Positions 1-53,573 of a stretch of DNA of 64,000 nucleotides are shown here, piece by piece. The first letter of the stretch is position 1. Each line of letters starts with the position of its first letter. Source of the DNA: Bacillota bacterium (GTDB lineage: Bacteria; Bacillota; Clostridia; Christensenellales; Pumilibacteraceae). A program made the translations under genes and the position numbers. The notes under the pieces were generated by a model, which was given only the letters and a program-made list of their open reading frames with translations, was not told the origin of the DNA and made no database searches. The stretch covers positions 125,048 to 189,047 of the forward strand of contig WRAF01000001.1 of assembly GCA_009780325.1 (NCBI GenBank), read 5' to 3'.

Positions 1-50
1 ACAGTCCATATTAGTTGACTTTTTTAAAGAGTTTATATATTCTAAATAAT

Positions 51-758
51 ATGAGGGATAAAAGACCGCAATTAAATAAAGCTTTATTTATTGTATTGTT
101 GTTTTTTCTGATAGTTCCAGCATTTATTTATTCTAGCTGGATAAATTATGAGCAGCGCAAATGGGATGATTTGCAATTATTGAAAACGGCAACAAAGCCG
201 CATAGAGGGACTTATTCAGAAAGAAGTTTTGTTTTGCAGCTATTAAAAAAAGGTTTTCATCCTAAAGCAATTTTTCATGATATTTATGTTAAGAAGCAAG
301 ACGGCAATTATACACAGATTGATTTAGTATTAGCAACAAAAGTAGGTTTACTTGCAATAGAAATAAAGGATTATGCTGGCAGAATTTATGGAAAAGGTAA
401 TCAAAAATATTGGACACAAGTTTTATCTTATGGGAGAATAAAGCATCGTTTTTATAATCCTGTTATGCAAAATGCCAATCATATTGTTCATTTAAAAAAA
501 TTGCTTGCTAAAGAAAAAGTGCCAATATTTAATGTAATAATCTTTTATGGCAACTCTTCATTTTATGGTGTGAGTGAAATTCCTAATGGAGTTTTTTGTG
601 TTAAAGATTATCAGGCATTAAAAGCAATAGATTTTATTATAAACAACAACCCTTTGGCGCATTATACAGACAAGCATGAAGTTGTTAGTATATTAAATGA
701 AACTGTTGCAAATGGTGATGAAACTTATTGTACATTCTCATGCAAATTATGTAAATGA
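51..758 (+). CDS. NERD-domain protein with N-terminal transmembrane helix
   Basis: ORF 15..758, with the ATG at 51 preferred. A hydrophobic N-terminus is followed by IDLVLATKVGLLAIEIKDYAGRIYGKGNQKYWTQ, which matches my recollection of NERD (nuclease-related) domains. Confidence 0.55.
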   Translation: MRDKRPQLNKALFIVLLFFLIVPAFIYSSWINYEQRKWDDLQLLKTATKPHRGTYSERSFVLQLLKKGFHPKAIFHDIYVKKQDGNYTQIDLVLATKVGLLAIEIKDYAGRIYGKGNQKYWTQVLSYGRIKHRFYNPVMQNANHIVHLKKLLAKEKVPIFNVIIFYGNSSFYGVSEIPNGVFCVKDYQALKAIDFIINNNPLAHYTDKHEVVSILNETVANGDETYCTFSCKLCK

Positions 759-8271: not shown

Positions 8272-9440
8272 AAAAAGCAATAGTTTATACATTAGGCTGC
8301 AAAGTGAATCAATGTGAAAGTCAACAAATTATTAATATGCTTGGACGTTTTGGTTATGAAGTTTGTTCAAGCTTTATGCAGGCAGACCTATATATAATTA
8401 ATTCTTGTTCTGTCACAAATGAGGCAGATAAAAAATCAAGACAGGCGATTGCTAAAGCCAGAAAATTTAATGAGAATGCCATCATTATAATGATAGGGTG
8501 CTCAGTAGAAAAAGGTTATGAAAATAACAATAATATTATTACCATTGGCACAAAAAACAAGGTTGAAGAATTAAGAAATTACATCAAAAATATATGCAAA
8601 ACTAATGTCTGTACAGATTTTTCTAAAAATAAAATGCGTCCTATGATAAAAATTCAGGATGGCTGCAACAGATTTTGTTCTTATTGTATTGTTCCTTATT
8701 TAAGAGGACGCAGTGTCTCAAGACCTGTGAATGAGATAATTAGTGAGATTAATCAATATAAAGATAAAACTAAAGAAATTGTTCTTGTAGGTATAGACAT
8801 ATCATCATATGATAATTTAATTGGGTTAATAAAAGAGCTTGGTATAAACTCTAAGAATAATTTTAGATTCAGGCTGGGATCATTAGAATGCAGCATTATT
8901 ACTCATGAATTTTTGACTGAGCTAAAAGAAAATAATTTTTGCGAGCATTTTCATTTGTCGCTTCAAAGTGGGTCAGATAGTGTGTTAAAGAGGATGAATA
9001 GACATTATACAGCAAAAACATTTTTAGAAAAAGTCAATTTGATTAGAAAATATTTCCCGCTTGCGGCTATTACTACTGATATAATTACAGGTTTTCCTAA
9101 TGAGACTGAAAAAGAATTTAATGAGACATTAGATTTAATAACACAAGCAAAATTCTCTAATATTCACGCTTTTCCGTTTAGTGCAAGAGAAGGCACAAAA
9201 GCGTATGATATGGATGGACAGATTTCTCATCAATTAAAAAAAGAGAGAGCAAATAAAATTATTGAGAGAGCTAAGGATTTACAAAAGGAGTTTTTACAAA
9301 AAAATGTTGGACTTATGCAAGAAGTTTTTGTAGAGGAGGATGCAGGATATACTAGAAATTATATAAGAGTACGTACAAATGAGAAAATAGGTATGCTTAT
9401 TAAAATAAAATTATCTGAAGGAGATATTTATTATGAATGA
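8268..9440 (+). CDS. mtaB: tRNA methylthiotransferase MtaB (radical SAM)
   Basis: N-terminal TLGCKVNQCES, radical-SAM CNRFCSYCIVP, and synteny with yqeV. Confidence 0.8.
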   Translation: MKKAIVYTLGCKVNQCESQQIINMLGRFGYEVCSSFMQADLYIINSCSVTNEADKKSRQAIAKARKFNENAIIIMIGCSVEKGYENNNNIITIGTKNKVEELRNYIKNICKTNVCTDFSKNKMRPMIKIQDGCNRFCSYCIVPYLRGRSVSRPVNEIISEINQYKDKTKEIVLVGIDISSYDNLIGLIKELGINSKNNFRFRLGSLECSIITHEFLTELKENNFCEHFHLSLQSGSDSVLKRMNRHYTAKTFLEKVNLIRKYFPLAAITTDIITGFPNETEKEFNETLDLITQAKFSNIHAFPFSAREGTKAYDMDGQISHQLKKERANKIIERAKDLQKEFLQKNVGLMQEVFVEEDAGYTRNYIRVRTNEKIGMLIKIKLSEGDIYYE

Positions 9441-26051: not shown

Positions 26052-27386
26052 TTAGCCTATATTTAGAAACTTATTCATATTTTCAATGTCGCTTTCTAAT
26101 ATAGAGCTTTTGACAGCCATTAATAATGATTCAATTTCATCAAAAGTAATAATCGGTTTTTGGTTTGCTATTTCTTTTCTGATTAATAGCATTTTTACTT
26201 TTTCACAAAACTCTGTAATATCTGCTCCGCTAAATCCGTTTAGGCGGTCTGCAATTTTTTCTATACTCACTTTATGGGCAAGGGGATATTTTTTTAGATT
26301 CTTATTCAAAATAAAAAGTCTGGCTTGTTCGTCAGGCGGCGGGATATAGATTTTTTCGCTAAATCTTCCTGGTCTAAGTAATGCACCATCCAAAGCCCAC
26401 GGACAATTTGTTGCAGCAATCACTAATAGCATATTTGTATTTTTTTCTACACCCTGCATTTGAGTCAATATCTCTTGAACTGTGTTAGAATACCCATTGT
26501 CAGCACTTCTTCTTTTTCCGATTGAGTCAAACTCATCAAAGAATATAATGGCCTTCTCACATTTTTTAGCATCAGAAAAAAGTTTCTTCACATTGTTTTC
26601 TGATTCTCCTATCCATTTTGATTCAATATCAGAGCATTTCACGCTAAAAAACTTTGCATCTAATTCGGTGGCTGCTGCTTGGGCAAACATAGTTTTTCCC
26701 GTGCCAGGAAGTCCAAACAATAAAATTCCACCGCCTACACTTTTGTCGTATTTATCATATAATTCTTTATGTTTTAAGGGCAATATAATCCTTTCTTCCA
26801 ATGCCTTTTTTGCCTCATCAAGTCCCGCAATATCTGATAATTTGGTGGTTGGAATTGCTGAGTCATTAGATTTTGTTGTTAGCTTAGTGATGTGTCTTTT
26901 GCTATGTATTTGCTTTGGTTTTTCAGTTGTATCATCAAATTCATTGTCATCATAGTCTATATCATCGTCATCTATATCTAGTTGTCTGTTTAACTCAATC
27001 AACTCTTGTTTAGTCAACCCTTTTGTTTCTATGCCTATTTCTTTAAACCAATCATGCATTTGCTCAATAGTATAATTATTTTCAAAATCATCATTAAAAA
27101 TGGCATAGATTAATTCGTCTTTTGTCATAGTGGAAAAATCTTTGATATTTCTTTCTGCGCACTCTTTTTGCAATTCACCCAAAGACCATTTGCTGAGTGG
27201 GATTATTCCGTCATCTTCGTCGGCATCTATCTTGCTGCTTTTTATCACAAACTCAATCAATGATATGCCGCCGATGAGTATGACACTGCCTGCAAGCCAT
27301 CCCCAATAGCCAAATATTAAGCTGCTGATATAGCCGACAAATGCTCCGACAGCAAAATTGCTGATATAAAAAGTGAGTGTCTTCAT
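26052..27386 (-). CDS. membrane-anchored classic-clade AAA+ ATPase with two HeH/SAP(Rho-N)-like modules
   Basis: Start reassigned to the ATG at 27386 (RBS GGGAGAA). N-terminal TM pair, then LGELQKECAERNIKDFSTMTKDELIYAI and KEIGIETKGLTKQELIEL modules and an acidic linker. Walker A GLPGTGKT, Walker B IIFFDEFD, and Arg fingers in LLRPGRF. Confidence 0.8.
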   Translation of the reverse strand: MKTLTFYISNFAVGAFVGYISSLIFGYWGWLAGSVILIGGISLIEFVIKSSKIDADEDDGIIPLSKWSLGELQKECAERNIKDFSTMTKDELIYAIFNDDFENNYTIEQMHDWFKEIGIETKGLTKQELIELNRQLDIDDDDIDYDDNEFDDTTEKPKQIHSKRHITKLTTKSNDSAIPTTKLSDIAGLDEAKKALEERIILPLKHKELYDKYDKSVGGGILLFGLPGTGKTMFAQAAATELDAKFFSVKCSDIESKWIGESENNVKKLFSDAKKCEKAIIFFDEFDSIGKRRSADNGYSNTVQEILTQMQGVEKNTNMLLVIAATNCPWALDGALLRPGRFSEKIYIPPPDEQARLFILNKNLKKYPLAHKVSIEKIADRLNGFSGADITEFCEKVKMLLIRKEIANQKPIITFDEIESLLMAVKSSILESDIENMNKFLNIG

Positions 27387-27404
27387 GTGTATTTCTCCCA
27401 TAAT

Positions 27405-27543
27405 GCAAAAAGTGCCATCCCAATTAAGAGATGGCACCCCAAGCGGTGCTCTCCTAATTGTCGCCAAACAACACTCAAAATAGAGGGGAGAAACAAGCCG
27501 AAGGGCAAATTTCACCTCTATTTTGATAATATGTTGTTTGGCA
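27405..27543 (-). ncRNA. unclassified structured leader/sRNA, copy A
   Basis: Minus strand: P1 CCAAACAACA/UGUUGUUUGG, P2 CAAAAUAGAGG/CCUCUAUUUUG, cap GCC-CUUC-GGC, CAAUUAGGAGA vs UCUCUUAAUUG, and terminator GUGCCAUC-loop-GAUGGCAC-UUUUU. The RBS and ATG at 27386 follow. Confidence 0.65.
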
Positions 27544-27548
27544 AGAAT

Positions 27549-27578
27549 AGGATAACATATTATTTGCAGAAAAAGCAA
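27549..27578 (-). promoter_or_regulatory. extended -10 promoter of RNA copy A
   Basis: Minus strand TTGCTT-18-TATCCT preceded by TGT. Confidence 0.5.
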
Positions 27579-27777: not shown

Positions 27778-28794
27778 ATGAAAAACATTACAGATTTTAC
27801 AATAGAGGAATTAAAATTCGTTTTGGCTGACCACCCGTCATTCAGAGCAGAGCAGGTTTTTAAGTGGCTGTCTAGCGGAGCAGATTTTGAACATATGTCA
27901 AATATTCCGATTGCCTTAAAAGAAAAGCTGAAAAATGAATATTATTCAAATGCAGTAAAAATTTATAAACAAATCAAATCAAGTGACAAATCAGTAAAAT
28001 TGCTGTATACTCTAAATGATGGTAGCTTTATTGAAGGAATTATGATTCCGCAATCATACGGAAACTCTTTGTGTGTGTCAACTCAGGCAGGATGCAGGAT
28101 GGGCTGTGCTTTTTGCGCTTCTCATTTAGGGGGCTTGTCAAGAAATTTAACAGCGGGTGAAATTTACTCTCAAGTAATCCAATCAAATAAAAGTTTCCCT
28201 AATCCAATATCAAAAATAGTTTTAATGGGCAGTGGAGAGCCTTTAGATAATTATTACAACACAACAAAATTCATAAAAATCATATGTGAGCCAAAAGGAT
28301 TAAACTTTAGTCAGCGCAATATTTCATTATCAACCTGCGGAATTGCAGATAAAATAATTAAGCTTGCCGATGAAAATTACAGCGTAAATTTATCTTTATC
28401 GCTTCATGCAACCACTGACGAGACAAGAAAAGCAATCATGCCGATAGCTAAAAAGTTTAATTTAAAAGAGACGATTAATGCGGCAAGATATTACTTTGAT
28501 AAAACGGGCAGGCGGGTATCTATTGAATATGTGCTGATAAAGGGTGTTAATAATACATTTTTTGACGCGAAACGATTAAAAGAATTATTATCAAATTTTT
28601 CGTGCCATATCAATTTAATTATGTTAAATCATGTGCCTGAGAGTAATTTAACTCCTTGCACTAAACAGGATGCTGAAAAGTTTCTAAAGTGGCTGACAGA
28701 TTTAAAATTAAGTGCAACTTTAAGAAAAAGTGCAGGCGGAGAAACATCTTCAGCTTGCGGGCAGCTAAGGAATAAGTTTATCAAGGAAAAATGA
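27778..28794 (+). CDS. rlmN: 23S rRNA/tRNA (adenine-C2)-methyltransferase RlmN (radical SAM)
   Basis: CRMGCAFCAS radical-SAM motif and a C-terminal GGETSSACGQL. A TTGACG-17-TATAAT promoter lies ~125 nt upstream. Confidence 0.9.
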   Translation: MKNITDFTIEELKFVLADHPSFRAEQVFKWLSSGADFEHMSNIPIALKEKLKNEYYSNAVKIYKQIKSSDKSVKLLYTLNDGSFIEGIMIPQSYGNSLCVSTQAGCRMGCAFCASHLGGLSRNLTAGEIYSQVIQSNKSFPNPISKIVLMGSGEPLDNYYNTTKFIKIICEPKGLNFSQRNISLSTCGIADKIIKLADENYSVNLSLSLHATTDETRKAIMPIAKKFNLKETINAARYYFDKTGRRVSIEYVLIKGVNNTFFDAKRLKELLSNFSCHINLIMLNHVPESNLTPCTKQDAEKFLKWLTDLKLSATLRKSAGGETSSACGQLRNKFIKEK

Positions 28795-28990
28795 CCCCCT
28801 ATATAGTGGTTGCAAAAAGCGAAAACCACAACACATAGTGTCAAAACAAAATCCACGACAAACTTAATTCTGAACATCAAAAAAACCGCACGCATCCCCA
28901 ATGTCAAATGATAAAAAGCGGACAAAAAACAACACAAACCACATACTACTGCAATGTCAATAATATTATAAGTTAGAAAGGAGAATTGCA

Positions 28991-29656
28991 ATGACATACG
29001 AATCGATTATCAAGAAAATGAAAAGCAACGGTATTGTTTTTACTAGCGGTTTAACAGCGGTTGAAATTTCTAAAATAGAAAAAATATATGGACTTAAATT
29101 GCCAACTGAATTGATAAAATTTTACAGTATCGCATTACCAATCGCTAACAAGAAAAATCCAATGAATATATTTCCTATGTGGAATGATTTCTCTGACGAG
29201 AACATTAAAAATATCAAAGAACAAAGGGCTTTACCGAAACAGAGAATATTGGAAGAGTATAAAAATGACGGTACGCTGCTTGCAGATATAGGAATTGCTG
29301 CGAACTTGGGAATTTCCACAATATTTGAAGAAGGGAAGTATGATGAAACATTTCCTGCTACCGAGCAATTAAGGCATAAAAAAGGGTTAGAGCAGTTTCT
29401 CAGCAATCTTGAAACCATAATTCCCATTTTTTCTCATAGATATATGATATTAAAATATGAAGATGATAATGCAGTGATTTCAGCCTATGGAACAGATATA
29501 ATTGCCTATGGAGTTACATTGAAAGATTATCTCATAAATGAATTTATTGATGCGAAAAATTTAGAAGATATTTATGGAAGAATAAGCGAAAAAGTTGAAA
29601 AGGGAGAAGATGAATTCAGAAGGCTTGGAAAATGGAGATATTTAATAATAAGATAA
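28991..29656 (+). CDS. SMI1/KNR4 (SUKH-superfamily)-like protein
   Basis: The N-terminal LTAVEISKIEKIYGLKLPTELIKFYSIALPI pattern is typical of SUKH/SMI1-KNR4 domains. RBS AAGGAG. Confidence 0.5.
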   Translation: MTYESIIKKMKSNGIVFTSGLTAVEISKIEKIYGLKLPTELIKFYSIALPIANKKNPMNIFPMWNDFSDENIKNIKEQRALPKQRILEEYKNDGTLLADIGIAANLGISTIFEEGKYDETFPATEQLRHKKGLEQFLSNLETIIPIFSHRYMILKYEDDNAVISAYGTDIIAYGVTLKDYLINEFIDAKNLEDIYGRISEKVEKGEDEFRRLGKWRYLIIR

Positions 29657-29680
29657 AATCCCCGACAAATCAGCCCACTT

Positions 29681-29769
29681 AAAGCCATCGCCCCGACTTA
29701 TTGACCCACTTAAAAATAGGGCAGGGACAAGCGACTGGATATTGCCCCGACCTTCAACACGCTTAGACA
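29681..29769 (+). repeat. cassette-3' direct repeat DR1
   Basis: CTTATTGACCCACTTAAAAATAGGGCAGGGACAAGCGACTGGATATTGCCCCGACC... matches 31180..31279. Confidence 0.8.
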
Positions 29770-29959
29770 ACTAAGAGGTAAGTTCATCGGGCAGAAATTA
29801 GACAAAAACGACCCCAAATAAGCACTTTTGACCGCTTTTGAACCATATCTTGGAAAGACTTTAACCCACCCGAATAACTTTCCTTTTAAGGGCGATTTTT
29901 GCTATGCGCCATCAATATGAAACCACACGCTCCTTGCATATCAAAGACAGTAGTTTTAT

Positions 29960-29988
29960 TTGACAATGGGGTTAGTTTTTGTTATACT
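29960..29988 (+). promoter_or_regulatory. promoter of the lipoprotein gene
   Basis: TTGACA-17-TATACT, ~150 nt upstream of the ATG at 30141. Confidence 0.5.
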
Positions 29989-30140
29989 AACTATGCTTGC
30001 ACAGTTAAGAAAAAATAAATTCAACTTTTTTTTCAAAAAAATGCAACAAAATGGAACTTTGAGTTGTATTAATAGTGTACGGGTCTATTCTCGGATAAAA
30101 TAACTCTTTTAACAATAGTTATTAGAGGAGGGCAACCATT

Positions 30141-31151
30141 ATGAAGAAAAAACTAATTTCAATAATAATAGCCATTACCATGACGGCGGTGACAGCGACT
30201 ATGTTAACGGGCTGCAATATAGGGTTGCCTCCAGTAGACCCCGCTTTTAACAATTATCAATTTATGAGCATTGAAGCTGCTTACAGCAAAGGGTTTTTGG
30301 ACAGAGAAGATATAAAGCAAATTGCGTATCGTGGCGACGGCACAGTTATAGAGTTTACAGGAGAAGATGCAAATACTGTCCGAAATGGATGGTGCTGTTG
30401 CCTTGATCCTGAAGAATGGGTTAATATTAGAGTGATTGAATTTACTCCTAGCCGTATTAGAGAACCAATTTCATCCGAAGTGGCGGCAGCTGCAAGAAAT
30501 ATATCCGCCCGTAATATTCATAATCACACATGGAGACAAGACGGATATTCGCTTAGAGACATATATAATAATTTAATCGTTACTGGCAGCACTTATAATG
30601 GTGTACATTTAATTGTGGTCACGTCACATTTATGGGACTATCCAGCAGTTATAGTAGATACAGTGATAAGCGGAATTGTTTGGACTCATGGGTATCCGAC
30701 AGCGTCGGTTTTTGTTTTTATACCTACCGACGAAGCGACTGTACGACACAGCAGCGCTGATTTTAGAGTAGCGACAAGTGGTGATTCTTTGAGGCGAAAT
30801 AACGAGATTGTCATAACCATAGAAGTGACTTCCCATCAAGATTTTGAGATTGAGTTAACTTCAGACGCTTGGCGTGGAGCAGCAGGAGCTATTGGCTGGC
30901 GACTGTACAACAATGGCAATGTTGCTCCTCTTTTTCTTACTGCGACAGATGACTGGGCAGAGGTGCAGATAAAAAAGGGGGATACTTTCATAAGGGTTAT
31001 AAATTTATCGGCATCATATTTTGATGCTTGTTGCTGTGAACCTTCCAACTTGATAGGTAATTTTACGATTCAAGTTACTCTTTTTGGGAGAGAATTGGAG
31101 CCAGTTGGTTGGCTTTGTACAAGCTTAGCTTTAAATATTGACTTACGATAA
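30141..31151 (+). CDS. Cys-rich lipoprotein, unknown function
   Basis: Signal peptide with lipobox MLTGC and two CCC triplets (WCCCLDPEEW, FDACCCEPSN). The gene is visibly GC-richer than its surroundings. Confidence 0.65.
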   Translation: MKKKLISIIIAITMTAVTATMLTGCNIGLPPVDPAFNNYQFMSIEAAYSKGFLDREDIKQIAYRGDGTVIEFTGEDANTVRNGWCCCLDPEEWVNIRVIEFTPSRIREPISSEVAAAARNISARNIHNHTWRQDGYSLRDIYNNLIVTGSTYNGVHLIVVTSHLWDYPAVIVDTVISGIVWTHGYPTASVFVFIPTDEATVRHSSADFRVATSGDSLRRNNEIVITIEVTSHQDFEIELTSDAWRGAAGAIGWRLYNNGNVAPLFLTATDDWAEVQIKKGDTFIRVINLSASYFDACCCEPSNLIGNFTIQVTLFGRELEPVGWLCTSLALNIDLR

Positions 31152-31179
31152 AAGTTACAAAAATTTGAAAACAAGTCAT

Positions 31180-31279
31180 AAAGCCGAACTCAATTTTATC
31201 CCAAACTTATTGACCAACTTAAAAATGGAGCAGGGACAAGTGATTGGATATTGACCCGACCTTTCAATCCACTAAGACA
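31180..31279 (+). repeat. cassette-3' direct repeat DR2
   Basis: See DR1. It begins ~30 nt after the stop codon of the preceding gene, just as DR1 does. Confidence 0.8.
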
Positions 31280-31355
31280 TAAATATATTGGTAAAAAGTA
31301 ATTAGATTAATTGATAAAATAAATGCAAAATTAACTATTAAAGGAGATGTAAAAC

Positions 31356-31973
31356 ATGAGTGATGACAAATTTGAAAATGAGGTTAAGTGGAGGCTTGAT
31401 AAAATAAATTCTGATTTATACCAAAAAGAAAGAGCCAAGGAAAACGAAAAGTTTTATGAGGACGGCAGAAAAAATCATGAAAGATGGAATGCTGAGGCAG
31501 AGCAACGTAGAGAAAGCAAGAAAAATTCATGGTGGAATAGTTCTACAAGTGAAGCAACTCAAGCGAGTTATAATGCAGCTATGACGGAAAGAGCTGCAAA
31601 TGAAATGGCGAAAAAAGAAGCTGAAAAAATAAAAATAGCAGCTATGTCGTCAGACGAGAGAACGCTGTATCTTGCTAAAAAGCGTTCAAATGTTTTTAAT
31701 GGTTTTGCCATTTTTACAACGCTAGTTGCAATACTCTTTATTGCACTTGCATGGGGAGTTAACGAGTTTAATGAATTAGGACATAATGTTATGACTGTAG
31801 TTCCTATTGTTTTCGCTAGTATTACTTTGTTGCTTTATATAATTGGTTTATCTACAAAATCGTTTAGGCTAAAAAGAATTGCATTTGCTGTTATTATGGT
31901 TTTGCTTTCAATAGGCATTATTATAGCGGCAGTTATTTGGTTCAATGGGTTTGTTCCTACTCCAACACCTTAA
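31356..31973 (+). CDS. membrane protein with charged N-terminal domain and three C-terminal TM helices
   Basis: 205 aa; RBS AAAGGAGA. No family recognised. Confidence 0.55.
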   Translation: MSDDKFENEVKWRLDKINSDLYQKERAKENEKFYEDGRKNHERWNAEAEQRRESKKNSWWNSSTSEATQASYNAAMTERAANEMAKKEAEKIKIAAMSSDERTLYLAKKRSNVFNGFAIFTTLVAILFIALAWGVNEFNELGHNVMTVVPIVFASITLLLYIIGLSTKSFRLKRIAFAVIMVLLSIGIIIAAVIWFNGFVPTPTP

Positions 31974-31979
31974 AACATA

Positions 31980-32135
31980 ATGAACATCAAAAAATTTTAC
32001 AGAGTAATGTCTACTATGTCGCATAGGTTTGCTGTTGAGATTGATGGCGAGGTTTTGGTGTGGCATTCTAAAAGGGGAGCAAAAGTGTATGGTAATAAGT
32101 ATAGTAATACATATCTGGCTCAGAATGAGGGGTGA
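31980..32135 (+). pseudogene. ghost copy of the rsgA 5' end
   Basis: 51-codon ORF MNIKKFYRVMSTMSHRFAVEIDGEVLVW..., compared with the real RsgA MENNKLYRVISTMSHRFLVDLGDEVLVC.... DNA similarity is visible over ~80 nt, after which the two diverge. Confidence 0.65.
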
Positions 32136-32168
32136 TTTATATCGATAGAAAAGGAAATGTTGCTGATT

Positions 32169-33065
32169 ATGGAAAACAATAAACTTTACAGAGTAATATC
32201 CACAATGTCACATCGTTTTTTAGTTGATTTAGGCGATGAGGTTTTGGTATGCAGTGCAAGATCAAGCAATAAAACTCAAGCCAATCATAGTGATGTGCAC
32301 AATAAATTCTCTAAAAAGGGCGGGACAATATTAGCAGGTGATTTTGTTAGAGTCGATATTATCAATAAAGTTATATTAAGTGTTGAAGATAGAAAAAATA
32401 AACTTATCCGTCCAGCTGTTTCAAATATTGACCAACTAATCATGGTAATATCATCTATCCCGCAGCCAGATTTTAAAATGCTTGATAAAATGATAATCAA
32501 TGCTATTTCAAAAAAAATCGTGCCAATCATATGTATTAATAAATCGGATATTAATAGTGATGACTTTCAAGTCCAAATCACTATGCAATATAAGGATATT
32601 AAAATAATTCAAATTTCGGCAGAAAAAAGTGATATAGATTCACTGAAAAAACTATTAAAAAATAAATTGTCTGTTTTATCAGGTCAATCGGCTGTGGGGA
32701 AGTCCACCATTATAAATGCTTTGACTAATTACGAGACAAGAAAAATCGGTGATTTGTCTAAAGCTATTCAGCGAGGCAAAAATACCACTACAAATACAGA
32801 GCTTTTTAAGATAAACGGCGGTCTTTTGGCAGATACTCCTGGCTTTAGTTTGACAGAGCTGTTTGATATTACTCATGGTGACTTAGATTTATATTACCCT
32901 GAATTTGAAAAACATAGACATTTATGCAAGTACCATCGCTGCAATCATATAAATGAGCCATCATGCAAAATCATTGAAAATAAAACCAAATACCTAAACC
33001 GATACGATAGATATATAGAGATATTTAATGAACTAAAAGAAAAACATGATAATAAGTATAAATAA
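32169..33065 (+). CDS. rsgA: ribosome small-subunit GTPase RsgA (CpgA/YloQ)
   Basis: Circularly permuted GTPase (INKSDI, GQSAVGKSTIINAL, DTPGF) with a C-terminal zinc knuckle CKYHRCNHINEPSC. Confidence 0.87.
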   Translation: MENNKLYRVISTMSHRFLVDLGDEVLVCSARSSNKTQANHSDVHNKFSKKGGTILAGDFVRVDIINKVILSVEDRKNKLIRPAVSNIDQLIMVISSIPQPDFKMLDKMIINAISKKIVPIICINKSDINSDDFQVQITMQYKDIKIIQISAEKSDIDSLKKLLKNKLSVLSGQSAVGKSTIINALTNYETRKIGDLSKAIQRGKNTTTNTELFKINGGLLADTPGFSLTELFDITHGDLDLYYPEFEKHRHLCKYHRCNHINEPSCKIIENKTKYLNRYDRYIEIFNELKEKHDNKYK

Positions 33066-33079
33066 TAAGGATGATTAAA

Positions 33080-33721
33080 ATGAAAACAAAGATAGCCCCA
33101 TCAATTTTAAGTGCTGATTTTTCTAAAATGGGTGAGCAAATTGAAATGATTTCAAATGCTGACTTTATCCATTGTGATGTAATGGACGGGCGTTTTGTGC
33201 CTAATCTTACTTTTGGAATGAAGATGATTAAAGACATCAAAAAAACGACTAATATACCGCTTGATGTTCATTTAATGATTGAAGAACCAGAGAATTATAT
33301 AGAAGAATTCATTAAATCAGGAGCTGATTATCTCACTTTTCATATTGAGGCTACAAAAAAAATTGACCACTGTCTAGACCTGATTCATTTGCATAATATT
33401 AAGGGCGGACTAGCAATTTCTCCGGATACTCCGATTTATACTGTAGAATCACATTTAAATAAATGTGATATTATTGTAGTCATGAGTGTTTATCCTGGTT
33501 TTGGCGGTCAAAAATTTATACCTGCATCATTAGAAAAAATCACTGCTCTTAAAAAAATGATTACAGATAAAAATTTTAATACTTTAATAGAAGTGGACGG
33601 AGGTGTGACTTTTGATAACGCCAAAAATATAATGGATGCAGGTGCAGATATTTTAGTGGCAGGCAATACAGTATTTGGAAACAAAAAACCTAAAAATGCA
33701 ATAAAAACTCTGCAAAACTGA
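33080..33721 (+). CDS. rpe: ribulose-phosphate 3-epimerase
   Basis: IAPSILSADF, HCDVMDGRFVPNLTFG and VDGGV motifs. Confidence 0.92.
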   Translation: MKTKIAPSILSADFSKMGEQIEMISNADFIHCDVMDGRFVPNLTFGMKMIKDIKKTTNIPLDVHLMIEEPENYIEEFIKSGADYLTFHIEATKKIDHCLDLIHLHNIKGGLAISPDTPIYTVESHLNKCDIIVVMSVYPGFGGQKFIPASLEKITALKKMITDKNFNTLIEVDGGVTFDNAKNIMDAGADILVAGNTVFGNKKPKNAIKTLQN

Positions 33722-33865: not shown

Positions 33866-34477
33866 GTGAAGAAAAAGATTATAGTCATCGGCATCGCAGT
33901 AATGATGATATTTGCGATAGGGCTAATGACGGGATGTGCAACAACTCCGAGGGGATATGTAAGAAGAGGAATTGAAACATCTCCAATATTAATGTACTTT
34001 GAAGATTCAACTATTCCATGGCGAAATGCGGAGTTTGATTTGAAGATTCAATTTCCGTATATTAATTTGGATTATGAATGCAACAATCAATATTTTGTGG
34101 TTCAAAATCAGTTACACAGTATTCGTTCCACAACATTACCAATTAGAAGTGGAGATGTGCTTGTTTATAAAAATTGTGAAACAAGTTTGAGATTAGGACA
34201 GCTAGTAACAAAAACAGATGCCCAAGCTGAAGGCTTTGGGATAAGCATAGTTTTCGTACACTCAAATTATATTTATTACCAACTGACCGAGGGGAGAAGC
34301 TCTAACCAGTGGAATATTTCAGAAGGGCGTGAGACTGTATTTTTTTCAAAGTACACATTTCATCGTTTCAACCTAAATACAGGAGAAAACGAAAAAATAG
34401 GTCTTAATCATTTTTATAATAAACTATCAACTTATTTTGATGATATTAAACTAAATCCTAACTTTAGTGTTAGGTAA
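33866..34477 (+). CDS. lipoprotein, unknown function
   Basis: Signal peptide plus lipobox LMTGC; GTG start after GGAGG. Confidence 0.55.
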   Translation: MKKKIIVIGIAVMMIFAIGLMTGCATTPRGYVRRGIETSPILMYFEDSTIPWRNAEFDLKIQFPYINLDYECNNQYFVVQNQLHSIRSTTLPIRSGDVLVYKNCETSLRLGQLVTKTDAQAEGFGISIVFVHSNYIYYQLTEGRSSNQWNISEGRETVFFSKYTFHRFNLNTGENEKIGLNHFYNKLSTYFDDIKLNPNFSVR

Positions 34478-34816: not shown

Positions 34817-35455
34817 TTAACCTTGGCTACGATATTTTTTCACAAGTTGGGCAACTTTCTCAGCAAATCTACCAGGAATGCGTTCGTCCCAATATTCAAT
34901 AGAATCACTTAGTGAGGAAAGGGTAGCTTCAAATGCAGATTGATTCAATTCATTTTTAATAGCCTGAACATAGAAGACTAAGTCCTCGAATTTCATAGTG
35001 CGGGTATTGCTTTTTCCATTTACCCAATTATCAATCATATTTAGGTAAATGAAAGCACTACCTTGATTCATGCCAGTTCTGCTTGAAACCATTTTAGCAA
35101 GTTGCTGATTATCATTGTCACGATTAATTTTATGTTGCTTAAAAACAGTCCAAAGAAAGTTGCGCATATCAGAATTGATTGCACTGTTAGAACGGCGAGT
35201 GGGCTGAAAATCGTTATCCCATGAGTGGGCATTATCAGTCGCAGCTGTTTGTAGTGGGGCAGGTGATGGCGGAGCAATGTTTGAGTGAGAAGCAAGAGTA
35301 GAAGAGGTAAGGAAAGAGATGTTCCGTTCCTTAATCAACTTTTTTAAAAACATTTTTATTGCGATATTGGCGTCAAGACCAAAATCATCAAGAATGTTTT
35401 CGGCTTCGTCTAGCAAGTGAGCGTCCAAGGTTAATGATAGTTCTTTGTTATTCAT
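34817..35455 (-). CDS. RelB/DinJ-like ribbon-helix-helix domain fused to an unknown ~140-aa C-terminal domain
   Basis: The N-terminal SLTLDAHLLDEAENILDDFGLDANIAIKMFLKKLIKERNISF fits the RelB/DinJ antitoxin pattern. No toxin ORF is adjacent. The gene is GC-richer than its flanks. Confidence 0.6.
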   Translation of the reverse strand: MNNKELSLTLDAHLLDEAENILDDFGLDANIAIKMFLKKLIKERNISFLTSSTLASHSNIAPPSPAPLQTAATDNAHSWDNDFQPTRRSNSAINSDMRNFLWTVFKQHKINRDNDNQQLAKMVSSRTGMNQGSAFIYLNMIDNWVNGKSNTRTMKFEDLVFYVQAIKNELNQSAFEATLSSLSDSIEYWDERIPGRFAEKVAQLVKKYRSQG

Positions 35456-50921: not shown

Positions 50922-52449
50922 ATGCTTTCTAGAATAAACAGCTTTGGATTAAACGGTGTTAAAGGATATAAAGTAGTGGTAGAAATTCATGCATCAAACG
51001 GTATGCCTAGGTTTGATATAGTTGGATTGCCTGATACATCTGTTAAAGAATCAAAAGAGCGGGTGACAAGCGCCATAAAAAACAGCGCTTTTGATTTTGC
51101 ACCAAAAAAATATACTATTAATTTGGCACCTGCAGACATAAAAAAAGAGGGGCCAATGTATGATTTGCCCATTGCTTTGGGTATTTTATCAGCATTAGGT
51201 CAACTAAGAGAAAAAATTGATTTATCTGATTTTATTATAATAGGGGAATTATCTTTAAACGGAGAAATAAGGCAAGTTAAAGGAATTCTACCTATAATTA
51301 TAGCGGCTAGAAGTGAAGGCATCAAAAATATAATAGTTCCAAGTGCCAATGCAAATGAAGCTTCTTTTGTAGATGGTGTTTCAGTTTTTGCTTTTAAACA
51401 TTTAAATGAAGTAGTAGAATTTTTCAAAGGCAATTTATTGCTTTGTCCAATTGAGCAAAAGGACATTGCATCGCATTTGACTTTAGAAGATAAATATAAA
51501 GAAGATTTTAAATTTGTAAAGGGTCAATATTTGGCTAAAAGAGCAATGGAAGTGGCTGCAGCTGGTTCTCACAATATTATTTTAATCGGGCCGCCCGGCG
51601 GCGGAAAAACAATGTTAGCAAAATGTTTGCCCTCAATTCTGCCTGATTTAACTGTATCAGAATCTTTGGAAACTACCAAAATCCATTCAATTGCAGGCAC
51701 ATTAGATGAAAATATCGGCATTATCACATCTCGCCCTTTTAGAACTCCTCATCATACTTCGTCAAGGTTTGCTTTAACAGGCGGAGGATTAGGTGCAAAA
51801 CCTGGTGAGGTGAGTCTAGCACATAACGGAGTGCTGTTTTTAGATGAAATGCCAGAGTATCCTAGATCTGTATTAGAAATCTTGCGCCAGCCAATAGAAG
51901 ACAATAAAATCACTATATCAAGGGCGGCAATTTCTGTTGAATATCCTGCAAATTTTATGTTAGTAGCATCCATGAATCCTTGTCCATGCGGGAATAAAGG
52001 CTCTAAAATAGATTGCGTTTGTACGCCAGCAATGGTACAAAAATATTTATCTAGGCTATCAGGACCACTATTAGATAGGATTGATTTACATATTGAAGTG
52101 GATAATGTTTCGTATGGATGAATTGTCTACTTCTCCTAATGCAGAACCTTCTGACAAAATAAAAAAACGAATTAATAAAGCAAGGGATATTCAGTTAGAA
52201 AGATTTAAAGATGCCAATATTTATTCAAATGGTTTAATGACTAATCAAATGGTAGATGAATTTTGTGTGATAGATAAAGAAAGTGACAATTTATTAAGAA
52301 ATGCTTTTAATAAATTAGGATTATCTGCAAGGGCATATATGCGTATAAGAAAAGTAGCAAGGACAATAGCTGATTTAGAAGAAAGCAAAGATATAAAATC
52401 AAAACATATCGCAGAAGCAATAGGATATAGAGCATTAGACAGAAGATGA
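50922..52449 (+). pseudogene. comM: ComM/YifB Mg-chelatase-like ATPase, frameshifted
   Basis: ORF 50922..52121 (...[17 protein letters not shown]) and ORF 52081..52449 (...[30 protein letters not shown]...) are contiguous ComM halves in different frames. The break is near 52116. Confidence 0.8.
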
Positions 52450-52499: not shown

Positions 52500-53573
52500 A
52501 TGATTAATGAAAGCAAAGCATATTATTGGCTATCCTTATCAGGAGCAACGGCAAAAAGGTTAAATGCAATTTTATCCGTTTATTCTTGTTTAGAAATTTG
52601 GGAAAGATTGTCAACAGATATAGCTTTGCAAGACGCCTTTAAAGGTAAAGCTGCAAACCTATTAAAATTACGCAATATTGATTTTATCAATGAAAGTCTA
52701 AATAAAATAAAAAGATGCGGCATTAATATAATGACTAGGGCTAATGAAAATTATCCAAAATTATTAAATCAAAAAGAAGTCAGCCCTCCTATAGTTATAT
52801 ATTATAAAGGAAATTTGGATTGCTTAAAGAATGAGTGTATAGCAATTGTAGGAACAAGACAAGCCACTAGCTATGGTGCGGATGTTGCAAAAAAATTTGC
52901 TTCTGATTTAGTTGCAAATGGTATTACGGTAGTTTCGGGTTTAGCAACAGGAATTGACTCATTTGCACATGAGGCGGTTGTGAATGATAAAGGAAAAACT
53001 GTCGCAGTGTTAGGCGGTGGTTTTGATTATTTATCACCGTATGCAGTTTCGCTAGCAGAAAAAATAATAGGTGAGGGCGGAATCATTTTAACTGAGTATG
53101 CTCCGTCGTTTTTTCCTACTAAATATACTTTTCCTGAGCGCAATAGAATTATATCAGGCTTATCAAAAGCTGTCATAGTCATTGAAGCAGCTGATAGAAG
53201 CGGGGCATTAATAACAGCTTCTTATGCGATTGAACAAAACAGAGAAGTATATGCTGTGCCAGGCGGTGTAAATGCAATCAGAAGTGAAGGGTGTAATAAG
53301 TTAATTAAAAATGGAATGGCAGCTATGGTGACAAGTGTGGTGGATGTGTTGACAGATTTAAGGATTAATGTCAAAAAGACAAAAAAAACTGCTCTTACAT
53401 TGAATATTTTTGAGCAAAAAATTTATGATAAACTGATAGAAGGTACTACTCATTTAGATGATATAATACAGTTAGGTTTCTCATTGTCTGAATTAACCAC
53501 CATTTTAATTAATTTAGAAATGCGCCAAATAATAAAAAAACAAGCAGGAAATTATTATTCACTAGTGCTGTAA
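52500..53573 (+). CDS. dprA: DNA processing protein DprA (Smf)
   Basis: IAIVGTRQATSYG, SGLATGIDSFAHEA, PERNRIISGLS, SGALITA. Confidence 0.87.
   Translation: MINESKAYYWLSLSGATAKRLNAILSVYSCLEIWERLSTDIALQDAFKGKAANLLKLRNIDFINESLNKIKRCGINIMTRANENYPKLLNQKEVSPPIVIYYKGNLDCLKNECIAIVGTRQATSYGADVAKKFASDLVANGITVVSGLATGIDSFAHEAVVNDKGKTVAVLGGGFDYLSPYAVSLAEKIIGEGGIILTEYAPSFFPTKYTFPERNRIISGLSKAVIVIEAADRSGALITASYAIEQNREVYAVPGGVNAIRSEGCNKLIKNGMAAMVTSVVDVLTDLRINVKKTKKTALTLNIFEQKIYDKLIEGTTHLDDIIQLGFSLSELTTILINLEMRQIIKKQAGNYYSLVL

What the first reader, a model, noticed from the sequence alone, without database searches (positions are those of the whole stretch)
28795..32168. Three-gene island replaces prpC-prkC between rlmN and rsgA and carries a ghost rsgA start
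In Firmicutes the order rlmN-prpC-prkC-rsgA-rpe is widely conserved. In this window the PP2C phosphatase and PASTA kinase are absent. Their place is taken by a SUKH/SMI1-like gene, a Cys-rich lipoprotein gene and a membrane-protein gene. Immediately before the real rsgA start lies a 51-codon ORF (31980..32135). Its first ~28 residues (MNIKKFYRVMSTMSHRFAVEIDGEVLVW) are a diverged copy of the RsgA N-terminus (MENNKLYRVISTMSHRFLVDLGDEVLVC). That is the footprint expected if the island arrived by recombination with foreign DNA carrying its own rsgA end. A perfect 14-mer, TGAACATCAAAAAA, occurs at 28871 and at 31981, bracketing the island.
Basis: partly seen in the sequence, partly recalled or inferred. 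Interest (0 to 1): 0.65.

Follow-up and report, generated by a model that had tools for sequence, protein, structure and literature searches.

The report
Cassette array between rlmN and rsgA
Between two ribosome-maintenance genes of an uncultured termite-gut bacterium lies a variable row of single accessory genes, most followed by a worn copy of the end of the upstream gene, which points to repeated insertion at one spot and not to one foreign island that replaced a kinase/phosphatase pair.

Summary
The three ORFs, the 51-codon ORF copying the RsgA N-terminus (86 nt, 73% identical; tblastn E about 1e-7) and the 14-mer pair are at the stated coordinates.

The PP2C/PASTA-kinase pair is missing at this site in every relative sampled (RsgA 42-78% identical). 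One relative has rlmN overlapping rsgA (ATGA), so that loss is old and unrelated to this DNA.

The "island" is three units. The same ghost follows unrelated cargo genes in at least four related lineages. Its roughly 40-nt block is nearly invariant, lacks the catalytic Cys codon and shows dyad symmetry centred where similarity to the real tail begins.

The left 14-mer lies in a leader block also present in a relative without these genes, so it is not an insertion duplication.

Best reading: a cassette hotspot in which insertions at the rlmN tail displace earlier tails, as in SCC arrays at rlmH. The rsgA ghost is a one-off scar from a diverged allele. No recombinase was found, so the mechanism is inferred.

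Novelty: new variant of a known kind. Interest is moderate.

The parts
27778..28794 (+). rlmN, intact. The functional tail (core CAGCTAAGG...TGA) runs from 28762 and keeps the ACGQLR Cys.
   Evidence: Pfam RlmN_N plus Radical_SAM. C-terminus aligned with relatives.
28853..28975 (+). Leader copy 1: a CA-rich, unstructured, conserved non-coding element downstream of the real rlmN tail.
   Evidence: nhmmer E 4e-15. Sequence comparison. No consensus structure. No Rfam hit.
28991..29656 (+). Cargo 1 (ORF-A), a SUKH/SMI1-KNR4-like protein of 221 aa.
   Evidence: Own Pfam hit E 0.0024. 21 of 27 homologues hit SMI1_KNR4. AF2 model pLDDT 87; top PDB matches are Knr4/SMI1/YobK but with E above 0.1.
29657..29821 (+). 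Ghost rlmN 3' end 1, long form. It reads ...LKNRAGTSD.. / ..TFNTLRQLRGKFIGQKLDKNDPK*, with the core GACAACTAAGAGG at 29766. The Cys codon is lost.
   Evidence: nhmmer ghost model E 2.6e-16. tblastn to RlmN tails. 36 nt are 97% identical to L007 5660-5695.
29864..29965 (+). Leader copy 2, displaced together with ghost 1.
   Evidence: nhmmer E 4e-19. Alignment to the L010, L016 and L020 leaders.
29960..29988 (+). Promoter-like site TTGACA-17-TATACT with an extended TG, upstream of ORF-B.
   Evidence: Consensus scan, 11 of 12 matches. A consensus match only.
30141..31151 (+). Cargo 2 (ORF-B), a Cys-rich lipoprotein of 336 aa with 40-44% G+C.
   Evidence: Lipobox LTGC. Composition. Homologues at 51-59% identity sit at unrelated loci without ghosts.
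31185..31301 (+). Ghost rlmN 3' end 2, more decayed. It reads PKLIDQLKNGAGTSDWILTRPFNPLRHKYIGKK*.
   Evidence: 85-88% identical to ghost 1 over 64-75 nt (D2, E 1e-16). Weak direct hit to the ghost model, E 0.009. Translation.
31356..31973 (+). Cargo 3 (ORF-C), an orphan membrane protein of 205 aa.
   Evidence: No homologue in the 5.8-billion-protein search. Hydrophobic C-terminal half.
31980..32135 (+). Ghost rsgA 5' end. Codons 1-28 (to about 39) are similar to RsgA; the rest is unrelated. The right 14-mer is at 31981-31994.
   Evidence: Unique to this genome among the sampled relatives.
32169..33065 (+). rsgA, intact. The conserved start is MENNKLYRV at 32169; an upstream in-frame ATG lies at 32157.
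   Evidence: Pfam. Homologue N-termini.

Best explanation
In this clade of uncultured termite-gut Bacillota, rlmN and rsgA were originally adjacent and overlapping. The prpC-prkC pair was already gone. Their junction has become a hotspot that holds a variable, co-oriented array of one- to few-gene cassettes.

The window's 3.4-kb interval holds three such units, not one island. The layout is: real rlmN tail + leader | ORF-A | ghost tail 1 + leader | ORF-B | ghost tail 2 | ORF-C | ghost rsgA start | rsgA.

Proposed mechanism (inferred). Incoming DNA recombines within the last ~11-18 codons of rlmN, just downstream of the catalytic Cys codon. It supplies a new functional tail and pushes the previous tail, with whatever followed it, downstream. 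Successive events pile up ghost tails, as tRNA or rlmH (orfX) fragments pile up beside tandem islands.

The ghost's left half is a conserved block (AAAAT-CCCCGACTTATYRACCCACTYAGA) that sits next to the cargo. With the core it forms an imperfect 50-nt palindrome. That block is the likely recombination site. It could be used by a recombinase encoded elsewhere, or it could act as a short homology.

The rsgA ghost is a separate, single event. ORF-C arrived from a related genome still attached to the first ~30-40 codons of that genome's rsgA, and it joined illegitimately just upstream of the resident rsgA.
For: Shown:
(a) An empty site exists. L033/L034 have the same synteny, and the rlmN stop overlaps the rsgA start.
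(b) Every relative has different cargo at this site and none has prpC/prkC.
(c) Ghost rlmN tails follow unrelated cargo genes in the window, L002, L007/L008, L014, L015, L016 (two) and L020 (three). nhmmer E values are 1e-15 to 1e-21. There is no copy elsewhere in the 64-kb window.
(d) L020 is collinear with L007 through rlmN, the SUKH gene and the first ghost. It then carries two extra cargo genes (281 and 772 aa), each ending in a ghost.
(e) Ghost left halves are conserved between lineages whose RlmN is only about 50-55% identical. For example, L014 and L020 differ at 3 of 49 nt. Yet the left halves are only about 20% identical to any real rlmN. The right halves of the first ghosts in L002, L007 and L020 match their own resident tail (0.73-0.87) better than other lineages' tails. 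That is the hybrid expected of an attR.
(f) Five unrelated cargo genes share the same left boundary, AAAAT|CCCCGAC.
(g) The dyad symmetry has 14 of 29 pairs, centred on GA-C-AAC, where similarity to the real tail begins (shuffle p about 0.04). RNAalifold predicts a 15-pair imperfect hairpin.
(h) Cargo genes are shared between distant arrays with similarity confined to the ORF. The Dabb gene is 91% aa and 79% nt identical between L020 and L011, against about 64% nt for housekeeping genes.
(i) The rsgA ghost carries the clade motif and has pN below pS.
Against: No integrase, serine recombinase or transposase was found in the ~47 window ORFs scanned against Pfam, or in any sampled array.

No free attP-like copy was found in viral contigs.

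The arrays in L010 and L011 carry cargo without ghosts. Ghosts are therefore not required for the hotspot.

Long ghosts keep about 110 nt of rlmN-like coding sequence. That is more than a minimal half-site, and it fits an origin by duplication or homology.

The dyad symmetry is only moderately significant, and no compensatory changes support a structure.

All ghosts could descend from one ancestral ghost spread by homologous exchange.

The sample is small: about seven distinct arrays, all from termite-gut metagenomes.
Confidence: 0.6

Rival explanations
1. A single three-gene foreign island replaced prpC-prkC by recombination. It is bracketed by the 14-mer and carries the donor's rsgA start as a footprint.
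For: The rsgA ghost is real and allelic. The cargo is unique to this genome. ORF-B is compositionally distinct. The 14-mer pair is unexpected for two pre-specified 200-nt zones, p about 0.001.
Against: prpC/prkC are absent at this site throughout the clade, including an empty-site relative. Two internal ghost rlmN tails and a duplicated leader split the interval into units. The left 14-mer lies in a block identical in L010/L035, which lack this cargo. Comparable 14-mers are common in the window: 19 pairs, one of which also straddles the island.
Confidence: 0.07
2. Passive scars with no dedicated site. One ancient duplication of the rlmN tail and leader arose when DNA was first wedged between two overlapping genes. 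Later cargo turnover happened by ordinary homologous recombination, possibly after natural transformation. That recombination used rlmN, rsgA and the repeated ghost/leader copies as anchors, together with unequal crossing-over. On this view the ghosts look conserved because they are repeatedly exchanged or gene-converted.
For: Long ghosts retain about 110 nt of rlmN-like coding sequence. The ghosts share derived characters, which suggests common descent. Leaders are duplicated along with the ghosts. L010 and L011 accumulate cargo without ghosts. The competence genes dprA and comM are present in the window. No recombinase was found.
Against: This model does not explain how unrelated cargo genes come to sit 5-20 nt from the same AAAAT|CCCCGAC boundary. 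It does not explain why a non-coding 40-nt block stays about 94% identical across lineages whose RlmN is about 50-55% identical. It does not explain why that block has evolved dyad symmetry absent from real rlmN.
Confidence: 0.25
3. The ghost and leader modules are kept for expression, not recombination. For example, they could be an RNA hairpin or processing site, or a promoter/5'-UTR module that lets each inserted gene, and finally rsgA, be expressed once translational coupling to rlmN was broken.
For: The modules lie upstream of cargo ORFs in the same orientation. The leader is strongly conserved (a 28-nt identical block). A hairpin is predicted in the ghost. TTGACC lies within the ghost, and a good promoter-like site follows leader 2.
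Against: The hairpin is weak (-9 kcal/mol), has no covariation and has no U-tract. The leader has no predicted structure. No Rfam family matches. Ghost 2, the L002 ghost and L020 ghost 3 lack a leader, yet their downstream genes are intact. An expression role also does not explain the resemblance to the rlmN tail.
Confidence: 0.08

Closest known systems
SCC / pseudo-SCC composite arrays at the 3' end of rlmH (orfX) in staphylococci (from my own knowledge)
   Same: The target is the last codons of an rRNA methyltransferase gene, and the gene stays intact. Each element ends in a direct repeat that copies the gene tail. Tandem arrays include small elements with no recombinase of their own.
   Different: The target here is rlmN, not rlmH. 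The units are mostly single genes of 0.7-3 kb. No ccr-type serine recombinase was seen in any sampled array. The ghosts reach 50-110 nt, against about 15-18 nt for SCC repeats.
Site-specific accretion and cis-mobilizable elements (CIMEs) of the ICESt1/ICESt3 type at gene 3' ends, and tandem islands beside tRNA genes with piled-up tRNA 3' fragments (from my own knowledge). An actinomycete integrative element inserted in rlmN is reported in PMC9513070.
   Same: Elements bounded by att-like repeats derived from the target gene's end. Some lack integrases. They stack by repeated use of the same site.
   Different: No complete parent element with an integrase or a conjugation module was found in this clade. 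The Streptomyces case involves a full AICE with 11-nt repeats.
Integron cassette arrays, and CALINs (attC clusters lacking an integrase)
   Same: Co-oriented, mostly single-gene units. Most are followed by a conserved imperfect palindrome. Array content varies between close relatives, and cargo is shared between distant hosts.
   Different: There is no intI. The RYYYAAC/GTTRRRY attC signature is absent. The repeat mimics the end of the adjacent housekeeping gene. At least one cargo gene has its own promoter-like site.
Homology-facilitated illegitimate recombination during natural transformation (from my own knowledge)
   Same: It explains the single rsgA ghost: a foreign segment anchored by homology on one side and joined illegitimately on the other, leaving a truncated copy of the donor gene.
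   Different: It does not explain the recurrent rlmN-tail ghosts with a fixed boundary.

Membership tests
   No PP2C or Pkinase between rlmN and rsgA in L002-L004, L007/L008 or L010, nor in the 10 kb upstream of rsgA in L011. rlmN overlaps rsgA in L033/L034. No tblastn remnant in the 418 kb held.
   Internal ghost tails and a duplicated leader divide the interval. The left 14-mer is part of a block conserved in L010/L035.
Site-specific integrative elements at a gene 3' end (SCC-like / CIME-like) | Insertion within the last codons of a conserved gene, with the reading frame restored | tested here: met
   The real tails are intact with ACGQLR. Similarity between ghost and real tail starts at GACAAC, just after the Cys codon.
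Site-specific integrative elements at a gene 3' end (SCC-like / CIME-like) | Each element ends in a direct repeat copying the target tail, and arrays arise by reuse of the site | tested here: met
   Two ghosts in the window, three in L020, two in L016, and one each in L002, L007, L014 and L015. Difference between L020 and L007.
Site-specific integrative elements at a gene 3' end (SCC-like / CIME-like) | Hybrid attR: the left half is element-type and the right half is host-type | tested here: inconclusive
   Left halves are conserved across lineages. Right halves match the resident tail in L002, L007 and L020, but not clearly in L014 or the window.
Site-specific integrative elements at a gene 3' end (SCC-like / CIME-like) | A cognate recombinase gene in the element or array | tested here: not met
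   None among the ~47 window ORFs scanned. None in the arrays of L002, L007, L010, L011, L014, L015, L016 or L020. The rest of the genome was not available.
Site-specific integrative elements at a gene 3' end (SCC-like / CIME-like) | Excised circular form, or an empty site within the population | not testable with these tools
   This needs read-level metagenome data or PCR. The only empty site seen is in a distant relative.
Integron / CALIN | intI gene next to the array | tested here: not met
   No tyrosine recombinase in the window.
Integron / CALIN | attC sites with R''/L''/L'/R' boxes (RYYYAAC ... GTTRRRY) | tested here: not met
   By inspection, the ghost consensus CCCCGACTTATYRACCCACTYAGACAACTAAGAGGTAAGTTYGTCGGGG lacks these boxes. 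No attC covariance model was available.
SUKH (SMI1/KNR4) superfamily, for ORF-A | Significant match to a SUKH profile or fold | tested here: inconclusive
   Own hit E 0.0024, below the cut-off. 21 of 27 homologues hit SMI1_KNR4, best E 3e-8. The top fold matches are Knr4, BF1740 and YobK, but with E above 0.1 and TM about 0.4.
Bacterial lipoprotein, for ORF-B | Signal peptide with a lipobox L-x-G/A-C | tested here: met
   MKKKLISIIIAITMTAVTATMLTGC, read directly from the translation.

The most novel reading that the evidence does not exclude
A previously undescribed cassette platform in Bacillota. Single-gene cassettes carry a ~50-nt imperfect palindrome that mimics the last codons of rlmN. 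A recombinase encoded elsewhere in the genome, or by a helper element, inserts them at the rlmN tail. This would be functionally analogous to integrons, but anchored in a housekeeping gene and built on a different site and enzyme.
Probability: 0.25. Interest if true: 0.8.

Novelty: new variant of a known kind. Interest (0 to 1): 0.5.

Why it matters
If the rlmN-tail mimic is a working recombination site, this clade has a compact gene-capture system. Its cargo includes immunity-like SUKH proteins, lipoproteins, acetyltransferases and small detoxification-type genes. The system would differ from integrons and from SCC. It would offer a new site/recombinase pair and a view of how gut symbionts trade accessory genes.

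If the ghosts are only scars, the locus still has two uses. First, it shows clearly what happens when DNA is wedged between two translationally coupled essential genes: both gene ends get duplicated. Second, it is a caution for annotation. The 51-codon ORF and several small ORFs over the ghosts are not genes. The missing prpC-prkC is a lineage trait, not a consequence of this insertion.

Tried and rejected
(1) The 14-mer as a target-site duplication. Rejected: the left copy lies in a block conserved in L010/L035, and background 14-mers are common.

(2) The leader as a decayed rsgA start, meaning a duplicated rlmN/rsgA junction module. Beyond the 14-mer (plus AAACxTAA) and one 14/16 match, neither shuffle tests nor an rsgA-5' profile support this. 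I kept it only as an idea.

(3) A known RNA family in the interval. Rfam at E up to 1 gave only a spurious lncRNA hit.

(4) A structured RNA. The ghost hairpin has no covariation and the leader has no structure.

(5) A donor for ORF-C and the ghost. ORF-C is an orphan. The donor lineage can only be placed within the STMSHRF clade.

(6) ORF-B moving as a ghost-flanked cassette. Its homologues sit at unrelated loci with no ghost or leader.

(7) A phage or plasmid carrying a free attP. There was no true hit in the viral contigs.

(8) Organism name. GTDB representatives gave only 'MAG: Bacillota bacterium' termite-gut bins for two related lineages. The window's own species is not among them.

(9) Replacement of rsgA itself by foreign DNA. 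The flanking genes are about equally distant from L002 and L007 on both sides, so no switch is detectable.

(10) Orthology of ORF-A with the SUKH gene that occupies the same position in L007/L020. No BLASTP similarity was found.


Full report
**1. What is at the coordinates**

- rlmN, 27778-28794.
- ORF-A, 28991-29656.
- ORF-B, 30141-31151.
- ORF-C, 31356-31973.
- A 51-codon ORF, 31980-32135.
- rsgA, conserved start at 32169 (an upstream in-frame ATG lies at 32157), ending at 33065.
- rpe, 33071-33721.

Pfam confirms RlmN, RsgA and, weakly, SMI1_KNR4 for ORF-A. 382 homologues of ORF-A were found. Of 27 that I aligned, 21 hit SMI1_KNR4. An AlphaFold model (pLDDT 87) has Knr4, SMI1 and YobK as its top PDB matches, though not significantly.

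ORF-B has a lipobox (LTGC) and eight Cys. ORF-C has a charged N-terminal half and three hydrophobic helices, and it has no homologue anywhere.

The ghost rsgA start is real. The match is 86 nt at 73% identity (blastn E 1.7e-7). tblastn E is 3e-8 to 7e-8 against RsgA N-termini.

The 14-mer occurs exactly twice.

**2. The prpC-prkC claim**

The order rlmN-prpC-prkC-rsgA-rpe in Bacillus and many Firmicutes is established knowledge. No kinase or PP2C domain occurs in about 47 window ORFs. No remnant appears in any sequence held (the queries were recalled from memory).

The relatives are more informative. I found them through RsgA:
- 78% identical: L002-L005.
- 75% identical: L006.
- 73% identical: L007/L008.
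- 45% identical: L010.
- 42% identical: L011-L013.

All of them keep the surrounding synteny (priA-def-fmt-rsmB-rlmN ... rsgA-rpe-rpmB-asp23-fakA). All have something other than prpC-prkC upstream of rsgA.

A further relative (P0022, 43% identical; L033/L034) has the same synteny, with the rlmN stop overlapping the rsgA start (ATGA) and nothing in between. The loss of the kinase/phosphatase pair is therefore ancestral to a broad lineage. The ancestral state for the present cargo was a tightly coupled rlmN|rsgA junction. Nothing here 'replaced' prpC-prkC.

**3. The interval is a hotspot with different cargo in every genome**

- L002: two unknown genes.
- L007/L008: a different SUKH-like gene plus nine small genes (DNA-alkylation-repair-like, DUF3781, PNPOx, DUF3788, YjbR, acetyltransferase and others).
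- L010: four unknown genes.
- L011: more than 10 kb of cargo.
- L006: a KilA-N fragment fused in frame to the rsgA start.

None of ORF-A, ORF-B or ORF-C has a counterpart at this site in relatives. ORF-A is not detectably related to the SUKH gene that occupies the same position in L007.

**4.

Reading L007 showed that its SUKH gene is followed by ...CAACTAAGAGGTAAGTTTGTCGGGGAAAATAAGCCCCAATAA. This is a near copy of the last 13 codons of its own rlmN (QLRGKFVGENKPQ* against QLRGKFVGQNKP*).

The window has the same feature after ORF-A. It spans 29657-29821 and ends ...TFNTLRQLRGKFIGQKLDKNDPK*. A more decayed copy follows ORF-B at about 31185-31301 (PKLIDQLKNGAGTSDWILTRPFNPLRHKYIGKK*). The real tail reads DLKLSATLRKSAGGETSSACGQLRNKFIKEK*. 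The two window ghosts are 85-88% identical to each other over 64-75 nt. L002 has a ghost after its first cargo gene.

A metagenome scan with the ghost-specific motif found further true copies, each followed by GACAACTAAGAGG:
- A genome whose RlmN is only 53% identical (L014; GTDB 'Bacillota bacterium Lab288P1bin40').
- Two short contigs (L015, and L016 with two copies).
- L020, a relative of L007 with three copies.

With an nhmmer model the ghosts score E 1e-15 to 1e-21. In the 64-kb window they occur only in this interval.

**5. Ghosts delimit cassettes**

L020 and L007 are collinear (88% nt) through rlmN, the SUKH gene and the first ghost. L020 then has two extra cargo genes (281 aa and 772 aa), each ending in a ghost. 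A homologue of L007's next gene follows further on.

In L014, a single 162-aa gene plus a ghost is wedged after rlmN, even though the next gene is not rsgA. The association is therefore with the rlmN tail, not with rsgA.

Five unrelated cargo genes end 5-20 nt before the same boundary, AAAAT|CCCCGAC.

**6. Anatomy of the ghost**

The consensus is AAAAT CCCCGAC TTATYRACCCACTYAGA | CAACTAAGAGG WAARTTYGTCGGGG ... stop.

- Similarity to real rlmN starts at GACAAC, immediately after the codon of the conserved Cys in ACGQLR, which every ghost lacks. From my own knowledge, this C-terminal Cys is catalytic in RlmN. A crossover upstream of it would therefore be lethal to the gene.
- Left of that point the ghosts are about 20% identical to any real rlmN but strongly conserved among themselves. 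L014 and L020 differ at 3 of 49 nt although their RlmN proteins are only about 50-55% identical to the window's.
- The right halves of the first ghosts in L002, L007 and L020 resemble the resident tail of the same genome (0.73-0.87) more than other lineages' tails.
- This is the hybrid structure expected of an attR: an element-type half followed by a host-type half.
- The block has dyad symmetry (14 of 29 pairs, outer arms TCCCCGAC/GTCGGGGA) centred on the C of GA-C-AAC. The shuffle p is about 0.04. RNAalifold draws a 15-pair imperfect hairpin, without compensatory changes. Real rlmN tails lack the left arm.
- Long ghosts (both window copies and the third L020 ghost) extend about 60 nt further into rlmN-like sequence (LKNRAGTSD against LRKSAGGET). 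The short forms look like deletion derivatives.

**7. The leader and the 14-mer**

A CA-rich, unstructured element of about 100-120 nt follows the real tail in the window (28853-28975) and in L010/L035. It also follows ghosts in the window (29864-29965), L014, L016 and L020.

Its block CGACAAACTTAATTCTGAACATCAAAAA is identical in the window and in L010/L035, a lineage with 45% RsgA identity and unrelated cargo. It therefore predates the window's cargo and is not an insertion duplication.

The match to the ghost rsgA start (ATGAACATCAAAAAA) may be chance. There are 19 comparable repeats in the window, and another pair straddles the island. It may instead be a trace of an old rsgA start. I tested that idea and could not support it.

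**8. The rsgA ghost**

It is unique to this genome among those sampled. It begins 6 nt after the ORF-C stop. It carries the clade-specific STMSHRF motif, but with VEID as in L009. Against the resident start, pS is 0.50 and pN is 0.22.

It is best read as the 5' end of a functional rsgA from a related genome in which ORF-C lay directly upstream of rsgA. It would have been brought in with ORF-C and joined illegitimately just before the resident gene. The donor cannot be named because ORF-C is an orphan.

**9. Mechanism**

Shown: a hotspot, an empty site, cassette-sized differences between relatives, conserved ghosts with a hybrid make-up and a fixed boundary, and cargo shared between distant arrays with similarity confined to the ORF (the Dabb gene is 91% aa and 79% nt identical between L020 and L011, against about 64% nt for housekeeping genes).

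Inferred: insertion by recombination at the rlmN tail, in which the incoming DNA supplies a new tail and displaces the old one. The geometry is a ~50-nt imperfect palindrome centred at the similarity boundary. From my own knowledge, this is what a serine- or tyrosine-recombinase site would look like.

The weak points:
- No recombinase gene is present in the scanned window ORFs or in any sampled array.
- No free attP-like copy turned up in viral contigs.
- The L010 and L011 arrays hold cargo without ghosts.

The main rival is therefore that the ghosts are scars of one old duplication, propagated by ordinary homologous exchange. dprA and comM are present in the window. That rival does not explain the shared boundary, the conservation or the acquired symmetry.

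**10. Comparison and verdict**

The closest known systems are SCC/pseudo-SCC arrays at rlmH, accretion/CIME arrays at gene 3' ends, and tandem tRNA-gene islands. Integrons are similar in function, but their defining features (intI and the attC boxes) are not met. An actinomycete element inserted in rlmN is on record (PMC9513070), but it is a full AICE.

I rate this a new variant of a known kind. Interest is moderate, and would be higher if the rlmN-tail mimic proves to be an active recombination site.

Noticed in passing
window 26052-27578 (minus strand): A 508-aa AAA+ ATPase with a Rho_N/SAP-like N-terminal motif is inserted in the opposite orientation between rsmB and rlmN. It is present in the window, L007/L008 and L020, and absent in L002, L010 and L033. 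This is a second lineage-specific insertion in the conserved operon.
   Followed up: partly
window 33866-34477 (+) and 34817-35455 (-): Two ORFs with no Pfam hit lie between rpe and rpmB; the first is a lipoprotein. Relatives have other content or nothing here (L006 has a 466-aa gene; L002 has none). The rpe-rpmB interval is therefore also variable.
   Followed up: no
L006 791-2260: A truncated KilA-N domain ORF runs in frame, without a stop, into rsgA, whose likely true start is GTG at 1358 (VQENKLYRV). This is another insertion scar lying directly against the rsgA start codon.
   Followed up: partly
L020 9374-9658 and L011 8689-8970: A 93/94-aa Dabb (stress-responsive alpha/beta barrel) cargo gene is 91% aa and 79% nt identical between arrays of hosts whose housekeeping genes are about 64% nt identical. 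The similarity stops at the ORF ends. A nitroreductase-like cargo gene is likewise shared by L015, L011 and L006.
   Followed up: partly
window 50922-52121 and 52500-53573: comM-like (Mg-chelatase/ChlI family) and dprA genes are present. The organism may be naturally transformable, which bears on how foreign DNA reaches the hotspot.
   Followed up: no
L029 about 8590-8670 and L030 1-80: The closest homologue of ORF-B (59% identical) sits in another genome directly downstream of what looks like a tRNA gene (GGTAGCGCGC...GGTTCGAATCC), at a locus unrelated to rlmN. I did not run ARAGORN on it.
   Followed up: no
window 28629-28997 (minus strand) and L010 8044-8238 (minus strand): Mechanical ORFs on the minus strand across the leader share the peptide FLMFRIKFV. 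This reflects the identical 28-nt DNA block, and indels elsewhere are not in multiples of three. They are probably not genes.
   Followed up: partly
window 28418 and 32731: A second exact 14-mer (ACGAGACAAGAAAA) occurs inside rlmN and inside rsgA, so it also 'brackets' the island. It shows that such pairs arise by chance in this A-rich genome.
   Followed up: yes
window 15-758: A NERD (nuclease-related domain) protein is encoded at the window's left edge, just upstream of hrcA-grpE-dnaK-dnaJ.
   Followed up: no
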